Assembly (NCBI GenBank): GCA_015478735.1
Contig: JADMKQ010000238.1
Location: forward strand, 1-52,942
Direction of reading: 5' to 3'
DNA from: Sphingorhabdus sp.
GTDB taxonomy: Bacteria > Pseudomonadota > Alphaproteobacteria > Sphingomonadales > Sphingomonadaceae
DNA length: 52,942 bases
In this document: piece after piece, positions 3,267 through 36,138 of the stretch
Layout of the letters: the number at the start of each line of letters is the position of its first letter
Position numbering within the stretch: the first letter of the stretch is position 1
Translations under genes and position numbers: made by a program
Notes under the pieces: generated by a model
The model's database searches: none
Seen by the model: the letters and a program-made list of their open reading frames with translations, nothing else
Told to the model about the DNA's origin: nothing

Positions 3267-4553
3267 TCAGCTCTCCGCGACCCATTCCCTTTGCAAATAT
3301 CGCGCGGCCAGAGCCATGAAACCGGCGGCGAACAGGTAAAATATCAGCGATACCAGCATGGAATAGCGCAAACCTTCTTCGCCATAAACCGGCGTCAGGG
3401 CATCGGACAGCGCTCCCAGAAAGAATATCCCGCCGCCAATACCGACCAGATTGTTTATCAGCAGGAACAGGGCCGATGCGGTCGCCCGTGTCTCCGCAGT
3501 CACCAGATGCTGCACCGCCGATAGAACGGGACCAAGCCAGATATAGGCCAGGCCCTGCGGGATCAGAAATAATATGAAGGCCAGCGTGGCCGAACCGCTC
3601 ATAATACCAGCGGCAAATAGCGGGACAGCGAGCAGAAAGGCGATGGCCGGGACCAGCCCGTAAGCGGCCTTGTTCTTGCCGCCCAGCCAGTCGCCGAGCA
3701 TACCGCCGCCCATCACGCCCGCGACCCCGCCGATTAGCAATATCGAGCCGAAGAACAGCGATGTCTCGATTAACGTCAAGCCAAAGCTGCGCTGCAACAG
3801 GCTGGGCAGCCAGAAGGCAATGCCATAGCCGAGCATCGAACTGGACGCCGCGCCCAGAGCGAGGAACCAGAAGGCGCGCTTTGCCGATAAGATTTTCAGC
3901 ACTTCCATGAATGTGGGCTGGGGCGGTGCGGCCTCGTCGATCACAGGTGGCTTCACGGGATCACGCACGAAATATTTGAAGACCGGAACAAGCAAGACGC
4001 CCGCAAGTCCCACAGTCAGGAACGCGAGCCGCCAATCGACGCTGGCCGCGATATAGCCGCCCGCCACCACGCCGGTCGCAGAGCCCAGCGGGATGCCGAG
4101 CGAATAGATGGACAGCGCCCGTGCCCGCTTCTCGCTAGGGAAATAGTCGGAGATCAGCGCATAAGAAGGCGCAACGCCGCCCGCTTCACCGACCCCGACA
4201 CCCAGCCGCGCGAGAAAGATCGTCCAGAAACCCTGGGCAAAGCCGCAAAGCGCGGTAAACCCGCTCCAAACACCCAGTGAAATGGTGATGACCCAGCTTC
4301 GGCTGGTCCGGTCGGCAATCCAGCCCAGCGGTACGGCGAGCGTGGAATAGAGCAGGGCAAAGGCTATACCGCCAAGAAGCCCCATCTGGGTATCGCTCAG
4401 TCCCAGGTCAGCCTGTATCGGCCCGGCGAGGATTGCCAATATCTGGCGGTCAACAAAGTTAAAGATGTAAACCAGCAGCAACATGCCAAGCGCGACATTG
4501 GGGGAGGTCACGCGGGGAGCAGACAGGCGTATGGAGCTTGCTTTATCCGCCAT
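3267..4553 (-). CDS. MFS transporter, spinster-like
   Basis: About 12 hydrophobic segments, NFVDRQIL N-terminal motif, MFS motif A (GWIADRTSR) and ARLGVGVGEAG. Confidence 0.92.
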   Translation of the reverse strand: MADKASSIRLSAPRVTSPNVALGMLLLVYIFNFVDRQILAILAGPIQADLGLSDTQMGLLGGIAFALLYSTLAVPLGWIADRTSRSWVITISLGVWSGFTALCGFAQGFWTIFLARLGVGVGEAGGVAPSYALISDYFPSEKRARALSIYSLGIPLGSATGVVAGGYIAASVDWRLAFLTVGLAGVLLVPVFKYFVRDPVKPPVIDEAAPPQPTFMEVLKILSAKRAFWFLALGAASSSMLGYGIAFWLPSLLQRSFGLTLIETSLFFGSILLIGGVAGVMGGGMLGDWLGGKNKAAYGLVPAIAFLLAVPLFAAGIMSGSATLAFILFLIPQGLAYIWLGPVLSAVQHLVTAETRATASALFLLINNLVGIGGGIFFLGALSDALTPVYGEEGLRYSMLVSLIFYLFAAGFMALAARYLQREWVAES

Positions 4554-5427
4554 CTATCTGGTGCTTTCTGGTGCTTTTCTTCAGGAAGGCATCTATCGCG
4601 GATAAAGCCTCTGGCTCGTCCAGCATCGGTGCGTGTCCCCGGTTCGCAATCTCCACCGCGCTAATCGGTCCCGAATGGCGGCGCTGCATTTCCGCGATCG
4701 TATCGGCGGATATAATATCCGACAATGCGCCATAGATAATCAGCGCGGGAAGGGCGGAAAAGCTTTCCCATAAAGGCCATAGATCCGGAGGAACAACCGT
4801 TTGGTCGCTGCCTGACAGGCCTTGCGAAATGGCGGGATCATAGTCCAGCTTCACACGGCCATCTGGCAGTTCGCGGCAAGTGCGGCGGGCAAAGCCCATC
4901 CAATCCTGCGCGCTATATCCTGCCATCGCATCCGCATGGACCTTGCGAGCATTGTCGGCCGCATCCTGCCAGTCATCAAACGGCTCGTGCGACCCGGCAT
5001 AACTTTGTATCCGGTCCAGCCCGGCCTGCTCGACCACAGGACCGATGTCGTTGAGGATGATGCCGCTAAAGCCCTCCGGCGCGCTTGCGGCCATCATTAT
5101 GGACATCAGCCCGCCCATGGACGTTCCGATCAGCCCTGGACGTTCGAGCTTCAGATCAGCGATCAGCGCCGCCATGTCGGCCACATAGACAGACGGATTA
5201 TAATTGTCAGGCTCCGGATCATATCCGGATCGTCCGCGCCCCCGCTGGTCCGGTATGATAAGCCGGTATTTCCCAGCCAGATGTGCGGCCAGACCTTCAA
5301 AATCGGCGCTGTTACGGGTCAGGCCGTGCATCAGTAAAAGCGGCGGACCCTCCGCATCATAGATGCGGGCATATAAGTCCAGCCGGTCGTCTGCACTGCG
5401 AAAGAAATGATCGGCATATTTCATCAC
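4543..5427 (-). CDS. Alpha/beta-fold hydrolase (3-hydroxybutyrate-oligomer hydrolase-like subfamily)
   Basis: HGLTRN oxyanion loop, DQRGRGRS, GTSMGG nucleophile elbow, LNDIGP and GHAP catalytic His. Overlaps the MFS start. Confidence 0.88.
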   Translation of the reverse strand: MMKYADHFFRSADDRLDLYARIYDAEGPPLLLMHGLTRNSADFEGLAAHLAGKYRLIIPDQRGRGRSGYDPEPDNYNPSVYVADMAALIADLKLERPGLIGTSMGGLMSIMMAASAPEGFSGIILNDIGPVVEQAGLDRIQSYAGSHEPFDDWQDAADNARKVHADAMAGYSAQDWMGFARRTCRELPDGRVKLDYDPAISQGLSGSDQTVVPPDLWPLWESFSALPALIIYGALSDIISADTIAEMQRRHSGPISAVEIANRGHAPMLDEPEALSAIDAFLKKSTRKHQIDGG

Positions 5428-5444
5428 GTTTGCCTATATCCCGA

Positions 5445-7811
5445 TCAGAATTTCACCCCGGCGGTGATAAAGACCTGGCGCGGATTTCCGTAATATGCGG
5501 TTAGCGTGCCTTCGGTGCCAAGCACACTAATCGGCTGACCGTTAGCTCCGGGTATGATCGCGCCGGTCGTTGGATCGGCAGCCACAAATGTATAGCCCGA
5601 TGTCTTGTAACGCTTATTGGTCAGGTTTTTGCCGTGCAAACCAATGCTCCAGCGGTTGTCAGGCGCATTGTAAACAAGGTTGGCATCCCAAAGGGCAAAA
5701 CCCTTTTGATCGATGTACGGGTTGGCAATCTCGAACTGGTTGGTTTTGCTACGATAGGAAAGTGTCGTCCCGAAATAAATATCCCCTTCCCCTACTGGTG
5801 TAGAATAGGAAAATGTCCCGCTGGCCGTCCATTTCGGTGTATTCTGCACCGAACGGAATTCCGCGACATCGGTCGGTACCGGAAGGTTAGAGACGGGATC
5901 GATGATGTTGGTGATATATTCGTCATATTGGGCATCAATATAACCAAGCGCGCCGGACAGCATCACACGGTCACCACTGGCAACCATGTCCTGAGCAAGC
6001 CGCGCACTCGCCTCAAGCTCAACGCCCTTTAGAGTGGCCTTGCCAGCGTTGTTGATAACACCGCAGAACGAAGGCAGGCCTTGGGCAGTACATGCTACCG
6101 ACCCTGGGATCTGAACATTTGTATAGTCGGTATAGAAGCCCGCGAGCGCGACATTGAGAGCGCCATTCAGAAGGCTGCCCTTATAGCCAATTTCATAGCT
6201 GTCTACTTCTTCGGGCTGAAAGCTGAGGAAGGAGGCAATTTCGGCATCGCTCGGGATACCATTGGTGTTGGTAGTCGGCGCATTGGAACCAACACCGCGC
6301 GGGTCAAAACCGCCACCTTTGAAGCCCTGCGAAAAGCTTGCATAGACATTATGATCGGGCGTTGGCTGGTAGCTCACCGAGGCGCGCGGTGTAAATTTCT
6401 TGAAATTGGCACTGCCCTCGAAATCAGTTGCGGGTGCGCCAAACGGAATGCCCGCTCCGCCAAAGGTCGGTGATCCGCCACCGAGGTAATTTTGCCGCAA
6501 GATGCCGGCGGTGCGCTCGTCCCATGTATAGCGCCCACCAACCGAAAGGCTCAACTGCTCGGTGAAATCATAGGTGAAATCAGCGAAAACTGCATAGGTT
6601 TCAGTATCAACATTAGCTTCGGTATAGGCAGTGAGACCGTCGAATGTGGTAAATATGCGAACATCAAACAGCGTATCAGCCTTGGCATCAAGATAATAGA
6701 AGCCAAGCAGACCTTTTAGCTTGTCGCCTTCATACAGCAGCTGGAATTCCTGGCTAATCTGTTCGTTCAGATATAATCCGGGAACGTCGAGATCAACCTC
6801 TGGCAGCGCATCGAAATCAATCGGTGTAGCCGTGTCATCTTTGCGCCAGGCGCTGATTGACCGGAATGTAACGGTATCGGTAAGATTTGCTGTGATATTC
6901 ATCGACAGGCCATAAGCCTCGATATCCTGTATCGGATCGTTGAGGCCGCCACGTGTATCAAAGACATCGTCCAGAACCGGTGCGCCGGAAACCGCACCCG
7001 GAATGAGGCGATGGCCACCGCGCGGATTGCTCTTGTCTTTGGTATAGTCGCCGGAAATCCGGATCAGGACCGGCTCACCATAGCCGCCGACTTCAACTGT
7101 ACCGCGGCCAGCCCATATATCCTTGTTATAATTCTCAAGACCGGTGGTTAAATTGTCGCCGAAGCCACCCCGTGACAGCCGCGCACCGGCTGCGCCGACA
7201 CGGATGATGTCGGAAACCGGCATGCTGGCGGTGACCACTAATTCAGCTTGGTCATAACTACCATAGGTCGCGCGCGCCTTGAACGAAGGATCCTGCGGCA
7301 GCCGCTTGGTTACATATTTGACGGCACCGCCAATTGTGTTGCGACCATAGAGCGTGCCTTGCGGCCCGCGTAATACTTCGATGCGTTCGACATCATAAAT
7401 GTCCAGCACAGCGGCCTGTGGACGGTTGAGATAGACATCGTCGAGATAGATGCCAACGCCTTGCTCAAAACCCGAAACCGGATCCTGCTGACCAATGCCG
7501 CGAATGAAGGCCGAGAGAGTTGAGTTTGTGCCGCGAGAAGCTTCCAAGGTCGTGTTAGGCGTGGTCAGACCAATATCGGTAATATCGACCGCGCCCTGCC
7601 GCTCCAGTTTTTCCGCCGAATAAGCAGTAATCGCAATAGGAACATCAATCAGTCGCTCTTCGCGGCGGCGGGCGGTGACGACGATTGTGCCATCGTCCGA
7701 ACTTTCGCTTGCCGTTTCATTGCCCTGTGCATGAACCACGGTCGGCATGATGAGGCCTGTCGCAAAGCAGCTCACCAAAGCCGCGTAACTCACATTGTTC
7801 CGGTATTTCAT
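5445..7811 (-). CDS. TonB-dependent receptor
   Basis: Signal peptide ending VHA-Q, TonB box (TIVVTARR), plug motif RIEVLRGPQGTLYGRNTIGG and C-terminal Phe. ATG 7811 has a GGAGGAGAGG RBS. Confidence 0.95.
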   Translation of the reverse strand: MKYRNNVSYAALVSCFATGLIMPTVVHAQGNETASESSDDGTIVVTARRREERLIDVPIAITAYSAEKLERQGAVDITDIGLTTPNTTLEASRGTNSTLSAFIRGIGQQDPVSGFEQGVGIYLDDVYLNRPQAAVLDIYDVERIEVLRGPQGTLYGRNTIGGAVKYVTKRLPQDPSFKARATYGSYDQAELVVTASMPVSDIIRVGAAGARLSRGGFGDNLTTGLENYNKDIWAGRGTVEVGGYGEPVLIRISGDYTKDKSNPRGGHRLIPGAVSGAPVLDDVFDTRGGLNDPIQDIEAYGLSMNITANLTDTVTFRSISAWRKDDTATPIDFDALPEVDLDVPGLYLNEQISQEFQLLYEGDKLKGLLGFYYLDAKADTLFDVRIFTTFDGLTAYTEANVDTETYAVFADFTYDFTEQLSLSVGGRYTWDERTAGILRQNYLGGGSPTFGGAGIPFGAPATDFEGSANFKKFTPRASVSYQPTPDHNVYASFSQGFKGGGFDPRGVGSNAPTTNTNGIPSDAEIASFLSFQPEEVDSYEIGYKGSLLNGALNVALAGFYTDYTNVQIPGSVACTAQGLPSFCGVINNAGKATLKGVELEASARLAQDMVASGDRVMLSGALGYIDAQYDEYITNIIDPVSNLPVPTDVAEFRSVQNTPKWTASGTFSYSTPVGEGDIYFGTTLSYRSKTNQFEIANPYIDQKGFALWDANLVYNAPDNRWSIGLHGKNLTNKRYKTSGYTFVAADPTTGAIIPGANGQPISVLGTEGTLTAYYGNPRQVFITAGVKF

Positions 7812-26533: not shown

Positions 26534-28726
26534 CTAAAAGTCGACGCTTGCTGACAGCCAGAAGCGGCGGGGTTCTATGAGGTTGGCATATTGCTGGCCA
26601 TAGGCTGCTCCGCCGTCATAAGGCAGGTAACGCACGAAATTCTTGCCCAGGAGATTGTAGATTGTTCCCGAAAGCCGGAAGGTTTCAGTCACGTCCAGAT
26701 TCGCACCCAGATGAAGCTGCGTATAGCCTTTGTAATTGCCAAGAGCTTCCTGTTCCGGTGTGGCTGTCCGGCCTGTCCCGCGAAAGCGGCTTGAGCGAAA
26801 TTCGCCCCGGACCCATGTCGTGAATTGTTCTGAAACTTTCCAGCGCAGATTGGCGTTTGCCATGTGCTTGGGCGTTCCGATCAGGGGTAAGCCCGCGTCA
26901 GGTCCGCTTTTCTGCTCGCTGTCGGTATAGGTATAATTGGCGGAAAGCGAGACTGCTGGCGTGAAGTTAAACCGCACGGCAAGTTCGGCGCCCTGGGTGA
27001 CAGCGCTGTCAATATTCACCGTCTGTCCGAAAGCATCGATAGCCGGGAAGTTGCCGACATCAATACAGCCCGGCAGATTTTGCGGACCGGTTCCCAAAGG
27101 ATCAAATGTGCAGTTGGGAACATCTGGCCCGCTGGCGATCTTATCCTTGAAATCATTGTAGAAAAATGTGGCATTGCCGGAGAAAAATCCGCCATTATTA
27201 TAATATAGGCCCGCCTCGTAAGAGGTGCTGGTTTCCGGCTTTAATGATGGCGTCCCAATGACGGGAATTGTTCCCTGTCCGGAATATCCGGTGATGCCGG
27301 GGGTAATCTGGTCGAGGCGCGGTGTTTTGAAGCCGCGGCTGACACCGCCTTTTAACGTCATTGCATCGGTGAGGCTGAAAACCGCATAGGCGCGGGGAGA
27401 AAACTTGCCGCCGAAAATATTATGCTCGTCATAGCGGCCGCCCAAGGTTACGCGGAACTTGTCATGTAGCACTATTTCGGACTCGCCAAATAGCGCCCAT
27501 TGATCGAAACTATATTGATCTTCGGCGACGCCATCCGTCATTCTTGCCCACCAATATTGGCCGCCTAAAGTCACTGTATGCGTGGCAACCGGAATAATGG
27601 CACGGCTGTCCAAAACGGTGTTTTTCGCTTTCAGAGTGCGCGGATCGCCAGCGACCAAGCCTGGTGAATTATCCGGGATAGTCCGGCCAAAGGTTTCGGT
27701 TATGGAGCGCGTTAAGGTGGTGTCGATATTAGCAAAGCCTGCGCGCCAGCTATGGGCAAGGGCGTAATTATCGCGGTTGAACTTTAATTCCGGGCCATAA
27801 CCACGGGTGCTGCCGGGAACGTCAATCGTACCTAGCTGGCCACCAACATTGTCATATTTCTGACGGGCAATATCGGCTTCAATCCAGATGTCGTGATCCG
27901 GATGCGGCACGATTGTAAGACGCCCGCCAAGAGTATAGACATCGCTCTTGACCGGACTTGGGCCGCGCTGGTCCACGGGCACCGTATCACCACTTACATC
28001 TTTAAAATCAAGATTGGCGGCATTACGGTGGAAATAACTGCCGCGAACACTTAATCCTACTAAATCCGGGATCAACGGGCCTTGGGCAAAGCCATTGGCG
28101 GCATAGCGATTGCCAAAGCTGGAATCTTCCTGGACCGTGACTTCTGTCGTAGCGGTTCCTACCCAGCGATGACCCACTTTTCGCGTGATAATGTTGATAA
28201 CACCGCCCATGGCATCTGATCCATAGAGGGTGGACATGGGACCGCGCACCACTTCTATGCGATCAATCGCGGAATATGGCGGAATGAAGCTGGAGCTGGT
28301 TTCGCCAAAACCGTTTGGCGTTACATTGCCGGGCGCATTCTGACGTCGGCCGTCGATTAGAACCAACGTATAATCGCTTGGCATACCGCGGATAGAGATG
28401 TTCAAACCGCCGGTTTTCCCGGCCGTTGCACCAACATCGACACCCTCGACATCTTCCAGTGCTTCGGCCAGGCTACCATAGCGTTTTTCCTCAAGCGCTT
28501 CGCGATCAATCACGCTGATGCTGGCAGGGGCGTCGACGACTTTTTGTTCGAAACCAGCGGCAGTGACGACGATCGTATGTCCGGAAGCGCCTTCTTCCAT
28601 GCTGTCACCGTTATCTGTCTGGGCTTGTGCGATTGCCGGCAGGGAAGCCAGTGCGAAAGCCAATGATGCCAGTGATAGTCCTGCTCGCGCAGCAGTCCCG
28701 CGTAGCGGAAAAATATGTCGTGTCAT
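26534..28726 (-). CDS. TonB-dependent receptor, IrgA/CirA-like (probable iron-siderophore)
   Basis: TIVVTAAGFEQKVVDAPASISV, ISIRGM and IEVVRGPMSTLYGSDAMGGVINIIT motifs, terminal Phe and upstream Fur-like boxes. Confidence 0.93.
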   Translation of the reverse strand: MTRHIFPLRGTAARAGLSLASLAFALASLPAIAQAQTDNGDSMEEGASGHTIVVTAAGFEQKVVDAPASISVIDREALEEKRYGSLAEALEDVEGVDVGATAGKTGGLNISIRGMPSDYTLVLIDGRRQNAPGNVTPNGFGETSSSFIPPYSAIDRIEVVRGPMSTLYGSDAMGGVINIITRKVGHRWVGTATTEVTVQEDSSFGNRYAANGFAQGPLIPDLVGLSVRGSYFHRNAANLDFKDVSGDTVPVDQRGPSPVKSDVYTLGGRLTIVPHPDHDIWIEADIARQKYDNVGGQLGTIDVPGSTRGYGPELKFNRDNYALAHSWRAGFANIDTTLTRSITETFGRTIPDNSPGLVAGDPRTLKAKNTVLDSRAIIPVATHTVTLGGQYWWARMTDGVAEDQYSFDQWALFGESEIVLHDKFRVTLGGRYDEHNIFGGKFSPRAYAVFSLTDAMTLKGGVSRGFKTPRLDQITPGITGYSGQGTIPVIGTPSLKPETSTSYEAGLYYNNGGFFSGNATFFYNDFKDKIASGPDVPNCTFDPLGTGPQNLPGCIDVGNFPAIDAFGQTVNIDSAVTQGAELAVRFNFTPAVSLSANYTYTDSEQKSGPDAGLPLIGTPKHMANANLRWKVSEQFTTWVRGEFRSSRFRGTGRTATPEQEALGNYKGYTQLHLGANLDVTETFRLSGTIYNLLGKNFVRYLPYDGGAAYGQQYANLIEPRRFWLSASVDF

Positions 28727-28736
28727 GAAGCCCCTT

Positions 28737-28784
28737 AATGCAAATGATTATTAGTTGCCTCCCTTTATGCGAAGGATTATCAAT
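28737..28784. promoter_or_regulatory. Two putative Fur boxes upstream of the TonB receptor
   Basis: TGCAAAT-G-ATTATTA (28739-28753) and TGCGAAG-G-ATTATCA (28768-28782), each 11/14 to the 7-1-7 core TGATAAT-N-ATTATCA. Confidence 0.7.
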
Positions 28785-28930
28785 TCGTCAACTGGCGATG
28801 AAAAAATAATTATTCGAGCTTTTACCTCATGACTTCAGCACACCAACGTGTTGATTTAAGCGGCTTGTGGTGAGGAGCAGGAACTTGCACACAGGATCTG
28901 TAAATTAATCAGGCACCCCCATCTAATAGT

Positions 28931-28949
28931 ATTGATTGTCACTCGCAAT
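28931..28949. promoter_or_regulatory. Putative Fur box upstream of the PepSY operon
   Basis: ATTGATTGTCACTCGCAAT. The reverse strand reads TGCGAGT-G-ACAATCA, resembling the alphaproteobacterial TGCGAGT-type Fur site. Confidence 0.6.
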
Positions 28950-29009
28950 TGGGTAATAGCCAGTCTTATATGTCGATATATTCCAAAATGATTCTGGTGT
29001 GCCCTGCCT

Positions 29010-29705
29010 ATGAGTGACCCTGAAACAATAGCGCTTCAGCGGAATCTGCCCGATGGTCAGGCCGATAAAGCTACCTCCAGCCCCAAGCGCAAGAAGCGCG
29101 TTTCTTCCTTTTGGGTGAAGCAGCTTCATACCTGGCATTGGATGAGCAGTGCGATTTGCCTGATCGGTATGTTGCTCTTTGCGATCACTGGCATCACCCT
29201 CAATCATGCCGGATCCATAGAAGCCGCGCCGCAGGTGCAGACTGTCGAGAAAGAACTGCCCGCCGCGTTGCTGGAAGAGATGGCTGATATAGAAGGCGGC
29301 GATGATGTTCCGCTGCCCGACGCGCTCAATGACTGGGCGAGGGCGCAGATTGATATTGATTTGAGCGGCCGGGCGGTTGAATGGAGCGAGGATGAAATTT
29401 ACGTCGCTCTGCCAAAGCCGGGCGGTGACGGCTGGATCTCTTTTGACCGGATGAGCGGCGCGGTTGTCTATGAAGCAACCGATCGCGGTTGGATTTCCTG
29501 GCTTAATGATTTGCATAAAGGCCGCGATACTGGCGCCGCATGGTCATGGTTTATCGATATTTTTGCAGGCGCCTGCATCATATTCTGCCTCACCGGATTT
29601 TTCCTGTTGCAGCTTCATTCCCGCAACCGGCCATCGACATGGCCAATCGTCGGCGCAGGCTTGGTCTTGCCGCTCTTGCTCATCCTTTTATTCATGCACA
29701 GTTGA
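29010..29705 (+). CDS. PepSY-associated TM helix domain protein
   Basis: HTWHWMSSA, LLFAITGITLNH and LNDLHKGRDTG. Conserved His residues in TM helices. Confidence 0.9.
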   Translation: MSDPETIALQRNLPDGQADKATSSPKRKKRVSSFWVKQLHTWHWMSSAICLIGMLLFAITGITLNHAGSIEAAPQVQTVEKELPAALLEEMADIEGGDDVPLPDALNDWARAQIDIDLSGRAVEWSEDEIYVALPKPGGDGWISFDRMSGAVVYEATDRGWISWLNDLHKGRDTGAAWSWFIDIFAGACIIFCLTGFFLLQLHSRNRPSTWPIVGAGLVLPLLLILLFMHS

Positions 29706-29713
29706 GAAAAGTT

Positions 29714-30274
29714 ATGAAATATTCGCTTCCCCTAAAATCCGGCTCTTATTGCTCCGTCGTATACAAGGCTCTTGCGATTGGCGGCGCAGCCTATCTTGCT
29801 GTTCCAGCCGCCCACGCACAGCAGATGACGGTCAGCTTTGACATTCCGCGGATGAAAGTTGCGGAATATCATCGGCCCTATATTGCGATCTGGATCGAAG
29901 ATGAAAAGGGGAAGGCCGTTACGACACTTCGGGTGCTGTATGATGTCGACCTTAAAGCCGATGACGGACGCAAGTGGCTTGCCGATATGCGAGCATGGTG
30001 GCGCAAGGCTGGTCGCAATACAAAAATGCCAGCCGATGGTGTCAGCGGTCCTACACAAGCACCCGGAAAGCACCGCGTTTCATTCACTGCCAACAAGCGT
30101 CCCCTCGGGCGGCTCGCAGCGGGTAGCTATAAATTGCAGGTGGAAGCCGCGCGTGAAGTTGGCGGACGCGAATTGGTGACAGTGCCATTTAACTGGCCGG
30201 GGAAAGGTGCAAAAACCTATTCCGGCAAAGGAAAAACCGAATTGGGCGCGGTGTCGTTGACGATTAAACCGTAA
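29714..30274 (+). CDS. DUF2271 family exported protein (putative flavinylation target)
   Basis: Signal peptide (AHA-Q), EYHRPYIAIWIE, KWLADMRAWWR, DGVSGPT and VEAAREVGGRE. Confidence 0.9.
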   Translation: MKYSLPLKSGSYCSVVYKALAIGGAAYLAVPAAHAQQMTVSFDIPRMKVAEYHRPYIAIWIEDEKGKAVTTLRVLYDVDLKADDGRKWLADMRAWWRKAGRNTKMPADGVSGPTQAPGKHRVSFTANKRPLGRLAAGSYKLQVEAAREVGGRELVTVPFNWPGKGAKTYSGKGKTELGAVSLTIKP

Positions 30275-30330
30275 GTTCAAACCGAAAAATAACGATATCA
30301 CACAGAATAATCTGAAGAGGAAATTCTATT

Positions 30331-31152
30331 ATGTTCATCAAACGCACTCTCAAATCACTGGCAATAACTCTCCCCATGATTGCGTTGGTTGCTGGTCCCG
30401 CAGATGCCCATCGCCGCTGGTTATTGCCTTCTGCAACCGTGATGTCGGGTGAGAAAGAGGTCGTCACCTTTGATGCTGCTGCTTCTAATGAATTGTTTGT
30501 TTTCGATCATCGCGCAAGTTCGCTGGATGATCTTGTCGTGCTTGGTCCGAACGGGGAAACTGTCGATGCCAAAATCATCGGTTCAGGCGTAAGTCGCAGC
30601 AGTTTCGATGTCGAAATGACCCAGCAGGGGACATATCGTATTGCCCTCGTCAGCGGCGGATTGATGGGTTTCTACAAAATAGGTGAAGAGCGTAAGCGCT
30701 GGCGCGGTACGGCGGAAGAGCTGGACAGCGCATTTCCCGAAGGCGCGACGGACATAAATGTCTCGGTGGTTTTCAGCCGTACGGAAACATTTTCGACATT
30801 GGGCGCGCCGAACGAAACGGCGCTGGCCCCTACTAATCAAGGATTGGAAATGGTTCCTGTCTCACACCCCAACGACCTTGTTGTCGGTGAAGCAGCACAG
30901 TTTAAATTCCTGATCGACGGCCAACCTGCCGCCGATATGGAAATCGAATGGGTCCGCGGCGGAACCCGTTACCGCGATACGGCGGAAGATATGAAACTGA
31001 AAACGGATGCTGCCGGCATGTTCGAGGTCACGGTTGAAGAGCCGGGCCTCTATTATCTGGAAGCCAGCGTGAGCGATGACAATGTAACGGTAGCCAAAGC
31101 AAATTCCCGCCGGTCATCCTATTCCGCAGTTCTGGAGTTCTTGCCGCTTTGA
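30331..31152 (+). CDS. DUF4198 family exported protein
   Basis: Signal peptide then AHRRWLLPS, GLEMVPVSHPNDL and GGTRYRD. Sits in the PepSY-DUF2271-ApbE operon. Confidence 0.85.
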   Translation: MFIKRTLKSLAITLPMIALVAGPADAHRRWLLPSATVMSGEKEVVTFDAAASNELFVFDHRASSLDDLVVLGPNGETVDAKIIGSGVSRSSFDVEMTQQGTYRIALVSGGLMGFYKIGEERKRWRGTAEELDSAFPEGATDINVSVVFSRTETFSTLGAPNETALAPTNQGLEMVPVSHPNDLVVGEAAQFKFLIDGQPAADMEIEWVRGGTRYRDTAEDMKLKTDAAGMFEVTVEEPGLYYLEASVSDDNVTVAKANSRRSSYSAVLEFLPL

Positions 31153-31177
31153 CCCCGAAAGGCACGAAGAGCGTCTA

Positions 31178-32173
31178 GTGGCGGCGGAAAATGACATAGA
31201 GATACTCATTCCGCCGACGCTGGATGCGGCGCGCCTGGAGCCGGACCCTAATGGCCACTTGCTACACCTTAAAGGTGACACAATGGGCACGTCCTGGACG
31301 GCTACGCTCGTCATTGGCGAGTCCGGCGATCCGTCCTCCTTGCAACCTGCGATAGAGGACGGTTTTCGCGAAATCATAAGGCAAATGAGCCAGTGGGAGC
31401 GGGATTCTGAACTATCCCGCTTCAATCGCGCACCGGCGGGTGAGTGGATAGAAATATCTCCGCAATTCGTAACCGTGCTGTCCATGGCGCTCATTATCGC
31501 TAAGGCCAGTGATGGAGTTTTTGATCCGGCAATAGGCCATTTGACCGACCTGTGGGGATTTGGTGCCGACAGTAGAATTTCCGCTTGGCCTGATCGCGAA
31601 AACATTCGCAGCCGACAAAGATTTAACTGGCGGGATATTAGTCTGGACAGGGACAATAGACGGCTCTTCCAGCCCGGTGGCCTGGCGATAGACTTAGCTG
31701 CCATCGCAAAGGGTTTTGCAGTCGATCACACGATAGCCGTGCTGGAAGCGCAAAACATAAAACATGCCTTGGTCGAAATCGGGGGAGAGCTGCGGGCTAT
31801 CGGCGTTAAACCGGATGGCCAGCCATGGTGGGTTGATATTGATACCGTCGGTGACCACTTGCCTTCGCGCATAGCATTAAGCGGCTGGTCCGTTGCAACC
31901 AGCGGCAACAATTTACGCCGACGGTCCTTTGGTGACAAGAGTTGGTCGCACAGCATTTCCCCATCAACCGGCCAGCCACTTGCCGAGTCCGTCTCTGCCG
32001 TAACCGTGCTTCACCCCGGTTGTATGCAAGCCGACGCATTAGCAACAGCGATTATGGTCAAAGGCATAGACGAAGGGCTGAGGTTCGCAGACCGCCACCG
32101 CATTGCCGCACAGATAGTGGCGGAGGGCGAGGTTTATGCTAGCCCGAAGTGGACGGAATATTGCGAAGGGTGA
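31178..32173 (+). CDS. apbE: FAD:protein FMN transferase (ApbE family)
   Basis: TMGTSW, SELSRFN, FDPAIG, DLAAIAKGFAVD, EIGGE, ATSG and ADALATA. Confidence 0.9.
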   Translation: MAAENDIEILIPPTLDAARLEPDPNGHLLHLKGDTMGTSWTATLVIGESGDPSSLQPAIEDGFREIIRQMSQWERDSELSRFNRAPAGEWIEISPQFVTVLSMALIIAKASDGVFDPAIGHLTDLWGFGADSRISAWPDRENIRSRQRFNWRDISLDRDNRRLFQPGGLAIDLAAIAKGFAVDHTIAVLEAQNIKHALVEIGGELRAIGVKPDGQPWWVDIDTVGDHLPSRIALSGWSVATSGNNLRRRSFGDKSWSHSISPSTGQPLAESVSAVTVLHPGCMQADALATAIMVKGIDEGLRFADRHRIAAQIVAEGEVYASPKWTEYCEG

Positions 32174-32193
32174 AGGGTTCATACCTTGAGTAA

Positions 32194-32694
32194 TTAGCTT
32201 TGCATTTCAGATGTGGTCTGTTCCTGTTCAGCAGGGTCATTCTCGACGAGATTGATAAGCACACCATCGCAATCGCGCAGACATACTTCAGGCTGTTGGC
32301 GATGTGGCATGACAAACATGGTTGGTTCGGGCGACCATGTCGCACCCGCTTCACGCAGCTTCGCGAGTGTTTCGTCCATCGAGCGGACATAGAAGATCAG
32401 CGCCACCTCACCAATTCTCGCAGGCCCGGTTGCGGTGGGAAGAACTTCTGCTTCCAGCGATTCATCAAGCTTGAATAGCCCGATCATTCCGTAATTTGGT
32501 CCAGGTCGTTTGAGGATATGGATGGAGAGCGGACGCACTTCGGGAAAGCCTATGATCGCATTGGCAGACGGATGCTCCAGTATGCCTTCATAATATGTCT
32601 CGGTTAGGCCAAGCGCGCGATAAAAACGAACGGATTTCTCCAGATCGCGAACAAAAATAGTGCTTCGAATTAGTGCGGATACGTTCGGTTTCAC
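32194..32694 (-). CDS. VOC/glyoxalase family protein
   Basis: IFVRDLEKSVRFYRALGL and RDCDGVLINLVE. GTG start with an AAGGAG RBS. Confidence 0.82.
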   Translation of the reverse strand: MKPNVSALIRSTIFVRDLEKSVRFYRALGLTETYYEGILEHPSANAIIGFPEVRPLSIHILKRPGPNYGMIGLFKLDESLEAEVLPTATGPARIGEVALIFYVRSMDETLAKLREAGATWSPEPTMFVMPHRQQPEVCLRDCDGVLINLVENDPAEQEQTTSEMQS

Positions 32695-32852
32695 CGTAAA
32701 CTCCTTGGGACGAGGTAATTTCTACTCACTTGGACGTTGGTGATCCTGACGAGTTTTTTTGACGTTACCGAACTATTATCCTGTAATCTCCACTAGCCGG
32801 ACAGGCGTATGAGCACTGTCGAGTATGCAATGTTTGCCTAATTGAAATCTCC

Positions 32853-34442
32853 CTAAAACCGGAAAGGGATACGCGCGACTATGCTCACGTCGGGGGCGTC
32901 TTCTGTGGCGCCGAATTGAAAGCCCAGGTTCAGGGATTGTCGTTCGCTCAGGCGGTAGGACATGCCGAGATTGAATGATCCGACCTGGATGTCGTCGCTC
33001 TCCTGCAGCGTGTCTCCGAGCTGGGTTGTGGTCGAGAATATGTAATTATGGCGATAGCCGAGCGAGAACGAGAATCGCGGGTTCAGGGCAAAGCCAAAGC
33101 CGACGCTGGCGTTGATGGCATCACCGGGATCGACCTTGCCGACAAAGACATCGCCGACGAGCTTGTCGATATTGCGCTCGATATTCCACAAATAGCCGAT
33201 GCCGCCGTAAATCACGACCGGATCGGACGGTAGCAGGAAGCTGAGGCTGGGCTGAACACCCCAGAAGCCGGAGCCGGTGGCAAGGCCGGTGGCTACACCA
33301 AAGTCATCAAACGGGATCTCGTAAGGGCTTTTGCCGGTGTCGGTTTTGACGCGCAGGCCAGCGACCCAGATCGGGTTATTCCTTGTTGGCCGGTTCAACT
33401 GGTAACGCAGCGCAAATTCAGCGTCGCCGATGTTTGTTTCTTCCAGGCTGACTTCGCGGGTAATCTGTTCATCCCGTTGCTGGACGACCTTGATCCGGTC
33501 CTTGCGGTAGAGCAGCGGAATACGGCCCTCGATTTCCAGCCGGTTGGTCAGGCCATAGCGCATGGCAAAGGTGCCGATAATGGTATCGCGGTCAGCATCA
33601 CTCGCTTCGATGGCGCCGATCTGGATGCCGGGGATAAGCTCGAACCCCCGGAATACCAGCCGGTTGGTCGAGGAGCGGGTATATTCGATCGAAGGATCAA
33701 GCACGAATTGTCCGCGCGGGGTCAGCACGCCTTGCCCTTCCGGCACGGCCTCGACCTTGCGCTCGATATTCTGGGATGGTGGCGGCGCTTCGCCCACAGG
33801 CTCGTCCGGCAGGGCCAGACTGTCATCGGGCTGTGTCCCTATCTGGACAGCGGCGGTTTCAAGCTGGCTTTTCTGGATGCCGGCCCCGCGCATCCGGGAC
33901 AGGTCATAAGGAGAGGTAGGCGTGCCGGGAAACGCCGCGAGGACAAGCTGGTTGTGAAGCTCCAACTGCTGGATCTTTTCATTTTGCGTCCGGATCAGTG
34001 CGCTTTGACGGGCGATTAGCTTGCGCTGCTCTGACAGTTCGGACCGGATGGCTTGCAAAGCGGATGTAATATCCTCGCCGGAGTCAGAAGCCGTTTCCTG
34101 CACAGGAGCCGGGACAGGCATCTGCTCTGGCAAAGCGGTTGCCAGCTCGATGGGGAGTTTTTTCTGTTCATCGGCTTGCAGAGGTGCCGGTGTTCGCGGC
34201 GAAGCGACAGCCACAGATGCCGGTGACGGAGCGGGCGATTTGATGCTGCTTAACCGCGCAAGGATTCTGGCAGTTTCCGCTTCTGCCTCTTCGGCGCTCA
34301 GATTAGGGGCCGGTTCGCTTTTGGGAGCGGTCTGGGGCGTTTGGACCTCCGCAGCTTCTGCCGGTGATCCTGCATAGATCAGGGTCAGGGTCAGTGGAAT
34401 TGCAGTGATGAACGGAAGGTGGCTTAAATGATTGATAGTCAT
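32853..34442 (-). CDS. FapF/SphA-like outer-membrane beta-barrel with N-terminal coiled coil
   Basis: Signal peptide, Pro/Ala linker, heptad segment ITSALQAIRSELSEQRKLIARQSALIRTQNEKIQQLE, then barrel motifs RYGLTNRLE, IGD, TGKSPY, LATGSGFW, SDPVVIYG, GFALN and GATEDAPD...PFRF. Confidence 0.8.
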   Translation of the reverse strand: MTINHLSHLPFITAIPLTLTLIYAGSPAEAAEVQTPQTAPKSEPAPNLSAEEAEAETARILARLSSIKSPAPSPASVAVASPRTPAPLQADEQKKLPIELATALPEQMPVPAPVQETASDSGEDITSALQAIRSELSEQRKLIARQSALIRTQNEKIQQLELHNQLVLAAFPGTPTSPYDLSRMRGAGIQKSQLETAAVQIGTQPDDSLALPDEPVGEAPPPSQNIERKVEAVPEGQGVLTPRGQFVLDPSIEYTRSSTNRLVFRGFELIPGIQIGAIEASDADRDTIIGTFAMRYGLTNRLEIEGRIPLLYRKDRIKVVQQRDEQITREVSLEETNIGDAEFALRYQLNRPTRNNPIWVAGLRVKTDTGKSPYEIPFDDFGVATGLATGSGFWGVQPSLSFLLPSDPVVIYGGIGYLWNIERNIDKLVGDVFVGKVDPGDAINASVGFGFALNPRFSFSLGYRHNYIFSTTTQLGDTLQESDDIQVGSFNLGMSYRLSERQSLNLGFQFGATEDAPDVSIVARIPFRF

Positions 34443-34479
34443 GTTTCTCTCCGGACATGCCCGTGCATGTTTATTGGTT

Positions 34480-35217
34480 TCAGGCTGGGGTAAAATCGCC
34501 AAGGCAAAGCTCTAGCGCCGGATGGACCGGGGCATCGGCTTGGGCGGCAAGGCTGTCCTGATATTCGCCGGCAAGTTTGCACAAACCGGCATGGTCTATG
34601 ATTGTGACGGAATGACGCCCGTCAATCTCGATCAGCTTGCGCCGCACCAGGTCGGTAAAGGTCCGGCTGACTGTGTGAACCGTAAGGCCCAGAAAGTCGG
34701 CAATATCGGCGCGGGACATGGAAAGCCTGATCTGTGCTCGCGAACTGCCGTCGGCGTTAATCTGATGTTTCAGGCAGAGCAAAAAGGCCGCCAGCCTTTC
34801 GGTCGCGGTGCGGTGTCCCATGATGAAAAGATAACGCTGGGCCGTGGACATGGCGCGAAACAGGATCGAGACTGCCTCGTCAAGTTGCGGCTTTGGCGTG
34901 GAATCGCGGGTAATATCACCGACCCTGTAACAGCGCAGTATCACATCTGTCACCGCTTCGGCGGCCGTGCCATAAGTGCCGTAATCGGCACCGAAAACAT
35001 CGCCGCTAAAGAAAAACCCGGTCAGGTGCCGGTGGCCGTCGATATGGAACCGGCATGTGCGCACAGTCCCCTGAACCACTTCATACCAGCGGTTGGCGTT
35101 CTGCCCTTCGTCAAATATGGATTGCCCTACGCGGAACCGTAAAGTGGTTGAGCGCAAGTTGGAACTTAGCCCCTGCATCGTAGCAGGCGCTGCGAATTGC
35201 GATTGCAGCCTTTGCAT
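34480..35217 (-). CDS. Crp/Fnr family regulator (FixK-like, no N-terminal Cys cluster)
   Basis: IFDEGQ, DGHRHLTGFFFSGDVFG, ATERLAAFL and HTH MSRADIADFLGLTVHTVSR. Confidence 0.92.
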   Translation of the reverse strand: MQRLQSQFAAPATMQGLSSNLRSTTLRFRVGQSIFDEGQNANRWYEVVQGTVRTCRFHIDGHRHLTGFFFSGDVFGADYGTYGTAAEAVTDVILRCYRVGDITRDSTPKPQLDEAVSILFRAMSTAQRYLFIMGHRTATERLAAFLLCLKHQINADGSSRAQIRLSMSRADIADFLGLTVHTVSRTFTDLVRRKLIEIDGRHSVTIIDHAGLCKLAGEYQDSLAAQADAPVHPALELCLGDFTPA

Positions 35218-35720
35218 CCGTGCTGTCTCCTCTAGACTCCAGCACGACCCTTTTTTTTTAGTCCCCCGCCGATATAATTGAAAATACCCGCGCGGCCTCA
35301 GATGCGACCTACGATACTATTCTTGAACATTATTGTTTTGCTTGCGTTGTTTTGTGGGAGTTGTTTACCGTAGAGGGCAGGACAGGGTCTACACCGTTAT
35401 TGCAGTGACTCGAATCCGTGGCGATTCAACTTGCTGCTTTTACTGGGTGATTCTACACACAGGATTTTCTCTACTTGTAAAATTTCGTAAATTCCAATAG
35501 TTAACAGGGACGATTTTATCCTATCTTGGGGCAGGGGTTTAAGAGTAAAGGATAAACGTCACAAAATATAAGTGACTAGGTGACGGCTTTTCGACTGTTG
35601 GGTGAGGGACAATTACCAGCAAAAGAATCGATAGCTTATGCAGTCGGACAGTTTGACCGCTATTGGTTACAAATGATGCTGCCCAATAGATTAGATAGAA
35701 TATTATAGAAGGTAACCTTC

Positions 35721-36020
35721 GTGATGTTACAGCGAAATAGTCTGGGGAATGATCCGGTACTCACGCTGAGAGAACATGAGATACTGGAGTTTATTGCACT
35801 GGGACTTTCAACCAAGGAAGTTGCACAGCATATCGATATTGCACCGCGCACAGTCGACCGCCATGTAGAGAATGTCCGTTTAAAGCTCCGCGCCAAGAAC
35901 CGCACCCACATGGTGGTGTGTGCTGTGATGGAAGGTTTGCTGCAAGTCAAAAAGGCGGATCTTCGCAATTCCGACCCGGCTGCATTGGCACAGGCCCAGC
36001 CTGCTGATGCCGATCATTAA
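35721..36020 (+). CDS. Stand-alone LuxR/GerE-type HTH regulator
   Basis: LTLREHEILEFIALGLSTKEVAQHIDIAPRTVDRHVENVRLKLRAKNR. No receiver or autoinducer domain. Confidence 0.9.
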   Translation: MMLQRNSLGNDPVLTLREHEILEFIALGLSTKEVAQHIDIAPRTVDRHVENVRLKLRAKNRTHMVVCAVMEGLLQVKKADLRNSDPAALAQAQPADADH

Positions 36021-36035
36021 AATATTGCAGCGGGT

Positions 36036-36138
36036 CTAGAGTGATTTCGAGTGAAATGGAACATTTCACGGCTCGGAAATCACGGTAAAACAATAAACTA
36101 GGCCCCAATTTTGATTCAATCAAAATTGAACGGGTCTA
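36036..36138. repeat. Two-hairpin intergenic element (RIME/CIR/Bru-RS-like MITE)
   Basis: 103 bp bounded by CTAG...CTA. Hairpin 1 is GTGATTTCGAGTGAAATG/CATTTCAC..CTCG.AAATCAC, followed by an A-rich linker. Hairpin 2 is a perfect CAATTTTGATT-C-AATCAAAATTG closed by TAGGCCC/GGGTCTA. Confidence 0.7.

What the first reader, a model, noticed from the sequence alone, without database searches (positions are those of the whole stretch)
32853..36020. Orphan FapF-like pore under an atypical Crp/Fnr plus LuxR-HTH regulatory pair, with no amyloid subunits or C39 peptidase
Seen: a signal peptide, coiled coil and beta-barrel protein lies 37 bp downstream of a co-oriented Crp/Fnr gene, which is divergent from a LuxR-HTH-only gene across a roughly 500-bp AT-rich gap. 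Known: this architecture and the barrel motifs (TG..P, L.TG.G.W, DP.V..G, FALN, G.T.DAPD, terminal P..F) match Pseudomonas FapF, the functional-amyloid secretion pore, normally encoded with FapA-E including the C39 peptidase FapD. Inference: this is either an undescribed alphaproteobacterial Fap-like export module whose cargo is encoded elsewhere, a repurposed SphA-family uptake channel, or the remnant of a deleted operon. It is the best candidate for an undescribed system in this window.
Basis: partly seen in the sequence, partly recalled or inferred. Interest (0 to 1): 0.7.

Follow-up and report, generated by a model that had tools for sequence, protein, structure and literature searches.

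The report
Split Fap-like fibre system, FixK-type switch
This outer-membrane pore is not an orphan: its protease and three secreted partner genes lie elsewhere in the same genome, and together they likely form an uncharacterised cousin of the Pseudomonas amyloid-fibre export system, which is probably switched on by the neighbouring FixK-type regulator through a conserved DNA box.

Summary
The three genes are as described and the pore is a true FapF relative. 'Orphan' is wrong: the genome's single C39 peptidase lies on contig C215 in a four-gene cluster with three signal-peptide proteins. Pore and peptidase co-occur in the same 20 of 61 relatives. In 59 of 70 related loci crp-fapF converges on the subunit operon; here the halves have drifted apart, as in one cultured relative. 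The subunits fail FapB/C models and carry one divergent repeat, so this is a sister system, not Fap proper; amyloid formation is untested. The scan reported this sister clade and its double-glycine leaders before on other DNA. New here is the regulation: a TTGC-N6-GCAA palindrome precedes the subunit operon in 64 of 70 loci (0 of 16 loci without this Crp), spaced like a class II Crp/Fnr promoter, and the adjacent FixK-like protein has His in place of the Glu that reads that base. It likely activates the subunit operon in trans, where relatives use a sigma-54 activator.

The parts
32853..34442 (-). FapF-like outer-membrane pore, 529 aa: signal peptide, low-complexity region, coiled coil, linker, beta-barrel. 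Its partner operon lies outside the window at G000:C215 (L039), minus strand: f1 5757-6266, f2 5296-5667, FapD-like C39 peptidase 4466-5281, FapE-position gene f4 3859-4452, promoter box 6392-6405
   Evidence: (NCBIfam FapF 141 bits, cut-off 700); partners
34353..34442 (-). Sec-type signal peptide, about residues 1-30 (judged by eye, ends AEA)
   Evidence: no signal-peptide predictor was run
33933..34082 (-). Predicted periplasmic coiled coil, residues 121-170
   Evidence: helix H121-170 in the model; heptad register with 10 of 15 a/d positions hydrophobic
33879..33902 (-). Conserved linker motif LSRMRGAG (residues 181-188), candidate double-glycine-type site for the C39 peptidase
   Evidence: 31 of 59 homologues with the first pattern, 57 of 59 with a pattern widened after seeing the misses
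32856..33722 (-). Beta-barrel domain, residues 241-529, aligned to the FapF crystal construct
34480..35217 (-). FixK-like Crp/Fnr regulator, 245 aa, no N-terminal FNR cysteine cluster; likely co-transcribed with the pore
   Evidence: NCBIfam FixK 133 bits, cut-off 300; directly upstream of the pore in 59 of 59 loci that hold the pore; close orthologues only in the 12 same-genus genomes with this system
34663..34677 (-). Recognition helix HTVSR (His181 where the FNR/FixK/CRP pattern has Glu)
   Evidence: His in 57 of 59 locus copies, one Glu, one frameshifted
35218..35720 (.). Divergent promoter region of crp-fapF and luxR, with blocks conserved in the genus; no TTGC-N6-GCAA box here; a hairpin encloses the crp ribosome-binding site
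35721..36020 (+). LuxR/GerE HTH-only protein, 99 aa, without a sensor or receiver domain; conserved companion of the locus
   Evidence: divergent from crp in 46 of 59 loci

Best explanation
The window holds the pore-plus-regulator half of a six-gene Fap-related system whose peptidase and secreted proteins lie on another contig, and which likely exports beta-rich subunits to build a surface fibre under control of the adjacent FixK-like protein. Shown: homology of pore and peptidase to FapF and FapD, gene content, co-occurrence, layout, the conserved box and its spacing, the leader motifs. Inferred steps: (1) the FixK-like dimer binds TTGC-N6-GCAA centred near -41.5 of the f1 promoter and activates f1-f2-fapD-f4 in trans, which lets the two halves separate; (2) all five exported proteins cross the inner membrane by Sec; (3) the periplasmic C39 peptidase cuts f2 and f4 after a double-glycine leader (ELDSMRGG, EMDKLRGG) and perhaps trims the pore's linker; (4) f1 (likely major subunit: first gene, no leader, expandable N-terminal Asp/Asn repeats), f2 and f4 pass the trimeric pore and stack through their shared C-terminal G-x8-NTG module into a cross-beta fibre. 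The LuxR-HTH protein probably acts upstream on crp-fapF; this step has the least support. My odds per step: C215 genes are the cargo 0.9, neighbouring Crp reads the box 0.75, cleavage at the GG leaders 0.6, amyloid-type fibre 0.6.
For: One pore and one C39 peptidase in the genome. Same 20 of 61 genomes hold both. Convergent crp-fapF >< f4-fapD-f2-f1 layout in 12 of 12 close genus genomes and 59 of 70 loci. Catalytic QxxDxSCG in 69 of 69 and His/Asp in 68 of 69 peptidases. GG leader in 68 of 69 f2 and 68 of 69 f4, 0 of 79 f1. Box in 64 of 70 promoter windows; 61 of 67 full-length windows against 0.39 expected from shuffles; other spacer lengths at most 1 of 70; 0 of 16 loci of the non-Crp types, where 5 of 9 with a sigma-54 activator show a -24/-12 site instead. 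A -10-like hexamer begins 23 nt behind the box (A at +24 in 85% of 61 distinct sequences; TA starts at +22/+23 in 37 of 64, at most 2 elsewhere). The published FixK2 box is TTGA/C-N6-T/GCAA (PMC9104804, passages), and Glu181 correlates with the A that is C here (PMC1274295, passages). The one locus with Glu (L186) has a TGAT half-site in place of TTGC. The module occurs in tandem arrays of 5-16 in other proteins, as solenoid or cross-beta repeats do.
Against: The subunits hit no FapB, FapC or FapE model at E up to 10, fail the published repeat pattern and do not align with canonical FapC repeats by profile (probability 0.3%). The single-chain fold prediction of f1 failed (pLDDT 48). No expression evidence: RNA runs covered genes and spacers evenly. 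Six of 70 loci lack the strict box, three of them with an intact His-type Crp. The same 14-mer also occurs in 18 of 24 same-genus genomes without the system, though mostly inside reading frames and without genome-wide spacer enrichment in G000. The 70 loci are kin, and the FapF tree suggests a single origin, so Crp and box are not independently correlated. The genome has a second, Glu-type Crp/Fnr protein that could read the box.
Confidence: 0.68

Rival explanations
1. The same secretion machine exports leader-processed beta-rich proteins that form a non-amyloid product (a pilus-like filament, adhesin coat or soluble factor); the likeness to Fap stops at pore and peptidase.
For: Subunits fail FapB/C/E models and the repeat pattern; one module per subunit where Fap almost always has three repeats (PMC12822426, passages); pore and peptidase also score, more weakly, on the Fil putative-pilus models (63 and 107 bits).
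Against: G-x8-G spacing and Asn/Gln richness are kept; weak bridges to FapB exist (a FapB-position protein of a canonical locus scores 13.8 bits, shuffled maximum 7.1; P0258 hits FapB at E 8e-5); f4 aligns with canonical FapE over its N-terminal part (probability 60%, mostly the leader).
Confidence: 0.15
2. The fibre system is as described, but the box is read by the genome's global oxygen sensor (the Glu-type FnrL-like protein on C82), making the operon part of a low-oxygen regulon; the neighbouring Crp is accessory.
For: FixK2 accepts TTGC half-sites; a Glu-type paralogue exists; in locus L073 a FixL/FixJ-like pair sits divergent from the crp.
Against: Both half-sites are TTGC at a fixed position; the narrow pattern occurs once in G000; the His-type orthologue is confined to genomes with the system and is kept beside the pore after splitting; loci without it lack the box.
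Confidence: 0.11
3. The pore is a repurposed COG4313/SphA-type uptake channel, or a decaying remnant left after the operon broke apart.
For: Pfam Phenol_MetA_deg hit; structural likeness to 4RL8; at least 22 kb separates the halves in any joining of the two contigs.
Against: FapF is the better match by sequence and fold; long coiled coil present; peptidase always co-occurs; both halves intact, 73-79% (pore) and 78-83% (peptidase) identical to unsplit relatives; both Pro-Thr-Gly gate motifs lack the Pro.
Confidence: 0.06

Closest known systems
Pseudomonas Fap functional-amyloid system fapABCDEF (FapF 5O65/5O67/5O68; FapC fibrils 9NQD/9U4U; PMC5557850, PMC3792158, PMC6173800)
   Same: FapF-type pore with coiled coil and barrel, periplasmic C39 peptidase with catalytic Cys, two paralogous Asn/Gln/Gly-rich secreted subunits, a FapE-position gene, GG/GA motifs in the FapE-position protein and the pore linker; detached fapF is a reported deviation.
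   Different: Subunits carry one divergent NTG-type module instead of three AAG..NQQ repeats and miss the FapB/C/E models; no fapA-like gene before f1; the larger subunit comes first; pore converges on, or is far from, the operon; textbook double-glycine leaders on two subunits; linked FixK-like and LuxR-HTH regulators.
BrfA/sigma-54 control of fap in Pseudomonas fluorescens PF07 (PMC13101488, passages)
   Same: A dedicated activator drives the subunit operon; sister loci in other alphaproteobacterial families carry a sigma-54 activator (VpsR-like domain in 3 of 4 scanned) in the slot before the pore.
   Different: Here that slot holds a FixK-like protein, and the promoter has a Crp/Fnr-type box with class II spacing instead of a -24/-12 site.
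FixK2 of Bradyrhizobium / FixK of Caulobacter (PMC9104804, passages; NCBIfam NF050806)
   Same: Best family match; no FNR cysteine cluster; 14-bp 4-6-4 palindrome inside the FixK2 consensus.
   Different: His replaces Glu in the recognition helix; the site is symmetric TTGC-N6-GCAA; apparently one target operon; no FixJ-like hit in G000 with the LuxR query.
COG4313 channel Pput2725 (4RL8) and the Fil putative-pilus system (NCBIfam FilB, FilC)
   Same: Related barrel fold; Fil also pairs such a barrel with a C39 peptidase.
   Different: Lower scores than FapF/FapD; COG4313 operons are reported without C39 peptidases (PMC6173800, passage).

Membership tests
Fap functional amyloid system | FapF-type pore: coiled coil plus C-terminal barrel | tested here: met
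   below the NCBIfam equivalog cut-off (141 of 700 bits)
Fap functional amyloid system | Standalone exported C39 peptidase FapD with catalytic residues | tested here: met
   (161 of 330 bits)
Fap functional amyloid system | FapB/FapC subunits matching the Fap repeat (G-x4-N-x3-G-x6-N; FapB/C models) | tested here: not met
   0 matches to the pattern, profile probability 0.3%; no model hit; control canonical locus L037 does hit
Fap functional amyloid system | Three imperfect repeats per subunit | tested here: not met
   one module each in f1 and f2
Fap functional amyloid system | FapE homologue | tested here: inconclusive
   no NCBIfam FapE hit; 60% profile match to three canonical FapE proteins, mostly over the leader
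Fap functional amyloid system | Single co-linear fap(A)BCDEF operon | tested here: not met
   convergent in 59 of 59 loci that hold the pore, split in G000; a detached fapF is a published deviation
Fap functional amyloid system | Secreted subunits form cross-beta amyloid fibres | not testable with these tools
COG4313/SphA uptake channel | Barrel without associated C39 peptidase system | tested here: not met
   peptidase in 20 of 20 pore-bearing genomes
FixK-type Crp/Fnr regulator | Crp fold without the FNR cysteine cluster | tested here: met
FixK-type Crp/Fnr regulator | E-x-x-S-R recognition helix | tested here: not met
   HTVSR; His in 57 of 59
FixK-type Crp/Fnr regulator | 14-bp TTG(A/C)-N6-(T/G)CAA site at class II spacing in a target promoter | tested here: met
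   the transcription start itself was not mapped
FixK-type Crp/Fnr regulator | Induced by FixLJ at low oxygen | not testable with these tools
   only one locus read (L073) has a FixL/FixJ-like pair beside it

The most novel reading that the evidence does not exclude
Sphingomonadaceae build a functional amyloid from single-repeat subunits that polymerise through one C-terminal module and display a freely expandable acidic N-terminal domain. Export is gated by cleavage of bacteriocin-type double-glycine leaders on two subunits and on the pore itself. The lineage replaced the sigma-54/c-di-GMP activator with a private FixK derivative whose Glu-to-His change rewired it to its own TTGC-N6-GCAA box, so that one regulator couples pore and cargo even when they are 80 kb apart.
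Probability: 0.35. Interest if true: 0.75.

Novelty: new variant of a known kind. Interest (0 to 1): 0.5.

Why it matters
Published Fap surveys require a FapB/C repeat match (PMC12392863, PMC12822426, passages), which these subunits probably escape, so a widespread alphaproteobacterial branch may be uncounted (FapF-like genes in 17 of 301 genomes of the class). The target of FapD was left open in 2017 (PMC5557850); the leaders here give exact cleavage predictions. The regulator, box and promoter geometry give a ready way to switch the system on in a cultured strain, and a natural test of how residue 181 sets Crp/Fnr specificity.

Tried and rejected
Assembly artefact as cause of the split: rejected. 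An independent 9.5-kb contig spans window 27000-35890 (run X1), and contigs of runs X3 and X16 bridge the SDR-f4 junction on C215; where the two contigs join is unknown. Expression from RNA runs: coverage was flat over genes and spacers, so no conclusion. Single-chain fold of f1: pLDDT 48, not searched further. Multimer prediction of f1: tool not available, no result. PDB search with the f1 profile: only E 0.4 hits. Atlas search with f2: only unnamed clusters; f4 not answered. Rfam on six loci: 0 matches. GGAY-N6-RTCC palindrome in the crp-luxR gap: present in 3 of 5 genus regions printed and none of 6 from other genera, dropped. A global regulon for the box: no spacer enrichment in G000 (111 sites against 88-166 at spacers 1-13). 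Box before crp: only 5 of 59. LuxR-HTH as a FixJ fragment: no specific FixJ score, left as a lead. The tree is the quick search only, with 12 near-duplicate or broken rows left out. One search crashed after printing the counts used. Not-in-print claim rests on searches; Figure 2, Figure S1 and the data tables of PMC6173800 could not be seen (one search held one 4.7-kb file), nor the tables of the 2025 surveys; they may list alphaproteobacterial fapD-fapF pairs.
Full report
Observation. The window encodes, on the minus strand, a 245-aa Crp/Fnr protein (34480-35217) followed after 37 bp by a 529-aa protein (32853-34442), and on the plus strand a 99-aa LuxR-HTH-only protein (35721-36020) across a 503-bp gap of 42-45% GC. 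The large protein matches the FapF crystal construct over residues 241-529 (E 4e-34; the only PDB sequences at E up to 1 were four FapF variants). Its model has a helix at 121-170 and a barrel, and Foldseek ranks FapF first (E 4e-22, TM 0.81 on the target) ahead of the COG4313 channel 4RL8 (E 9e-13).

The pore is not an orphan. The genome (2.67 Mb, 243 contigs, 97% complete) has one FapF-like gene and one C39 peptidase. The peptidase is a standalone 271-aa protein on contig C215, best matching FapD (161 bits), in a minus-strand cluster f1 (169 aa), f2 (123 aa), fapD, f4 (197 aa); all four begin with signal-peptide-like sequences by eye. In 61 genomes searched, the same 20 hold both pore and peptidase. 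In 12 of 12 close same-genus genomes the order is luxR <- crp -> fapF -> [0.1-8 kb of variable genes] <- f4 <- fapD <- f2 <- f1 on one contig. In 70 loci found with the f1 alignment (record titles mostly Parasphingorhabdus, Sphingorhabdus, Sphingopyxis, Sphingomonas), the pore lies within the fetched flank in 59, always on the opposite strand and always behind the crp; LuxR is divergent in 46 of 59. In G000 the halves are internal to two contigs and at least 22 kb apart; contigs from other runs confirm both junctions. Locus L168 (record title Stakelama marina LXI357) is split too: crp-fapF at 972-974 kb and the peptidase at 1,055 kb of one contig. Separation of fapF is among the commonest deviations in known Fap loci (PMC3792158, passages).

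The cargo is Fap-like but not FapB/C. f1 and f2 share one C-terminal module of about 65 residues with invariant glycines and an NTG..Q motif. They hit no FapB, FapC or FapE model, fail the published repeat pattern, and do not align by profile with ten canonical repeats, whereas a canonical locus in the same genus (L037) passes. Two weak bridges exist. The module profile finds 614 representatives at E up to 0.001, some with 5-16 tandem copies. f1 homologues in other genera expand an acidic Asn-rich N-terminal repeat region up to 450-530 aa. FapF-like genes were found in 17 of 301 genomes of the class, none over the FapF cut-off; 12 of 17 loci read have the peptidase nearby. Fibre formation is inferred from context and composition only; the monomer model failed.

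Candidate peptidase sites. f2 and f4 carry, behind the signal peptide, a motif like the bacteriocin double-glycine leader (the leader consensus is recalled, not from a call): 68 of 69 and 68 of 69 homologues, against 0 of 79 f1. The pore linker keeps a related motif (31 of 59 strict, 57 of 59 after widening). For Pseudomonas the FapD target was unresolved, with GG/GA motifs in FapE and the FapF linker proposed (PMC5557850, passages). Earlier notes of this scan reached the same point on other DNA; I had recorded it before seeing them.

Regulation. Aligning upstream regions showed a palindrome, TTGCCATATCGCAA in G000 (C215:6392-6405), about 140 bp before f1. Strict TTGC-N6-GCAA lies within 300 bp of the first subunit gene in 64 of 70 loci; other spacers score at most 1; 0 of 16 loci of the non-Crp types have it. 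A -10-like hexamer starts 23 nt behind it, which would centre the box near -41.5 (the class II geometry is from my own knowledge). The box lies within the FixK2 consensus TTGA/C-N6-T/GCAA (PMC9104804, passages). Glu181 of the family correlates with the A of the half-site (PMC1274295, passages); the locus protein has His there in 57 of 59 copies, and the base is C. The single Glu copy (L186) has a TGAT half-site; n is 1. Close Crp orthologues occur in exactly the 12 same-genus genomes with the system and in none of the other 24; LuxR-HTH likewise, plus one more genome with a weaker match. Against this: five Crp-bearing loci lack the strict box, the 14-mer occurs as background in 18 of 24 genus genomes without the system, the loci are kin, and a Glu-type paralogue is present. 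In other families the gene before the pore is a sigma-54 activator, with -24/-12 sites in 5 of 9, echoing BrfA in Pseudomonas (PMC13101488, passages). A quick FapF tree places the Crp/box loci as one side of a well-supported branch, with sigma-54-type loci on several neighbouring branches, which fits, but does not prove, a regulator swap.

Literature seen. Passages of PMC5557850, PMC3792158, PMC12392863, PMC12822426, PMC13101488, PMC1274295 and PMC9104804; part 1 of 6, passages and one supplement file of PMC6173800; abstract and outline of bioRxiv 10.64898/2026.10.01.755530. The 2013 survey found Fap only in Gamma-, Beta- and Deltaproteobacteria; the 2018 review states that the operon encodes no regulators and that fapD-fapF pairs occur in five more phyla. 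No description of this branch, its regulator or box turned up in searches, which cover open-access papers only.

Verdict. A real, intact, uncharacterised sister of the Fap system, split in this species; works like Fap, but fails the subunit tests for membership. The orphan state is explained. The added value is a specific, testable regulatory model and predicted peptidase sites. New variant of a known kind; interest 0.5.

Noticed in passing
window 36029-36131: A roughly 100-bp palindromic repeat with 57 blastn places in the genome, many at contig ends including the left end of C215; folds with z -5. REP- or MITE-like.
   Followed up: partly
window 35218-35250: Conserved hairpin (CGTGCTG..CAGCACG) enclosing the ribosome-binding site of crp; z -3.7; no Rfam match. 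A smaller one covers the f1 site.
   Followed up: partly
L037 (G023), L038 (G019): Two same-genus genomes carry a canonical three-repeat Fap operon with a peptidoglycan-binding gene and a distant Crp upstream instead of the divergent system: canonical Fap in Alphaproteobacteria. G498 has both types.
   Followed up: partly
L073 3147-5600: A FixL-like kinase and FixJ-like regulators occupy the place of the LuxR-HTH gene, divergent from crp.
   Followed up: partly
L023, L027-L030, between fapF and f4: The insertion hotspot often holds a second LuxR-HTH-only paralogue, an alpha/beta-hydrolase-fused gene and a TonB-dependent receptor.
   Followed up: no
L039 189-3019: TIR-domain protein followed by a TPR-sensor/adenylate-guanylate cyclase protein next to the subunit cluster.
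   Followed up: no
window 26534-32173: TonB-dependent receptor, PepSY-TM, DUF2271, DUF4198 and ApbE genes beyond the pore; no DNA match of substance in five close genomes; other runs lack one base at 28916.
   Followed up: no
P0133, P0137, P0142, P0254: Unnamed secreted proteins made of 5-16 tandem copies of the subunit module; their gene context was not read.
   Followed up: partly
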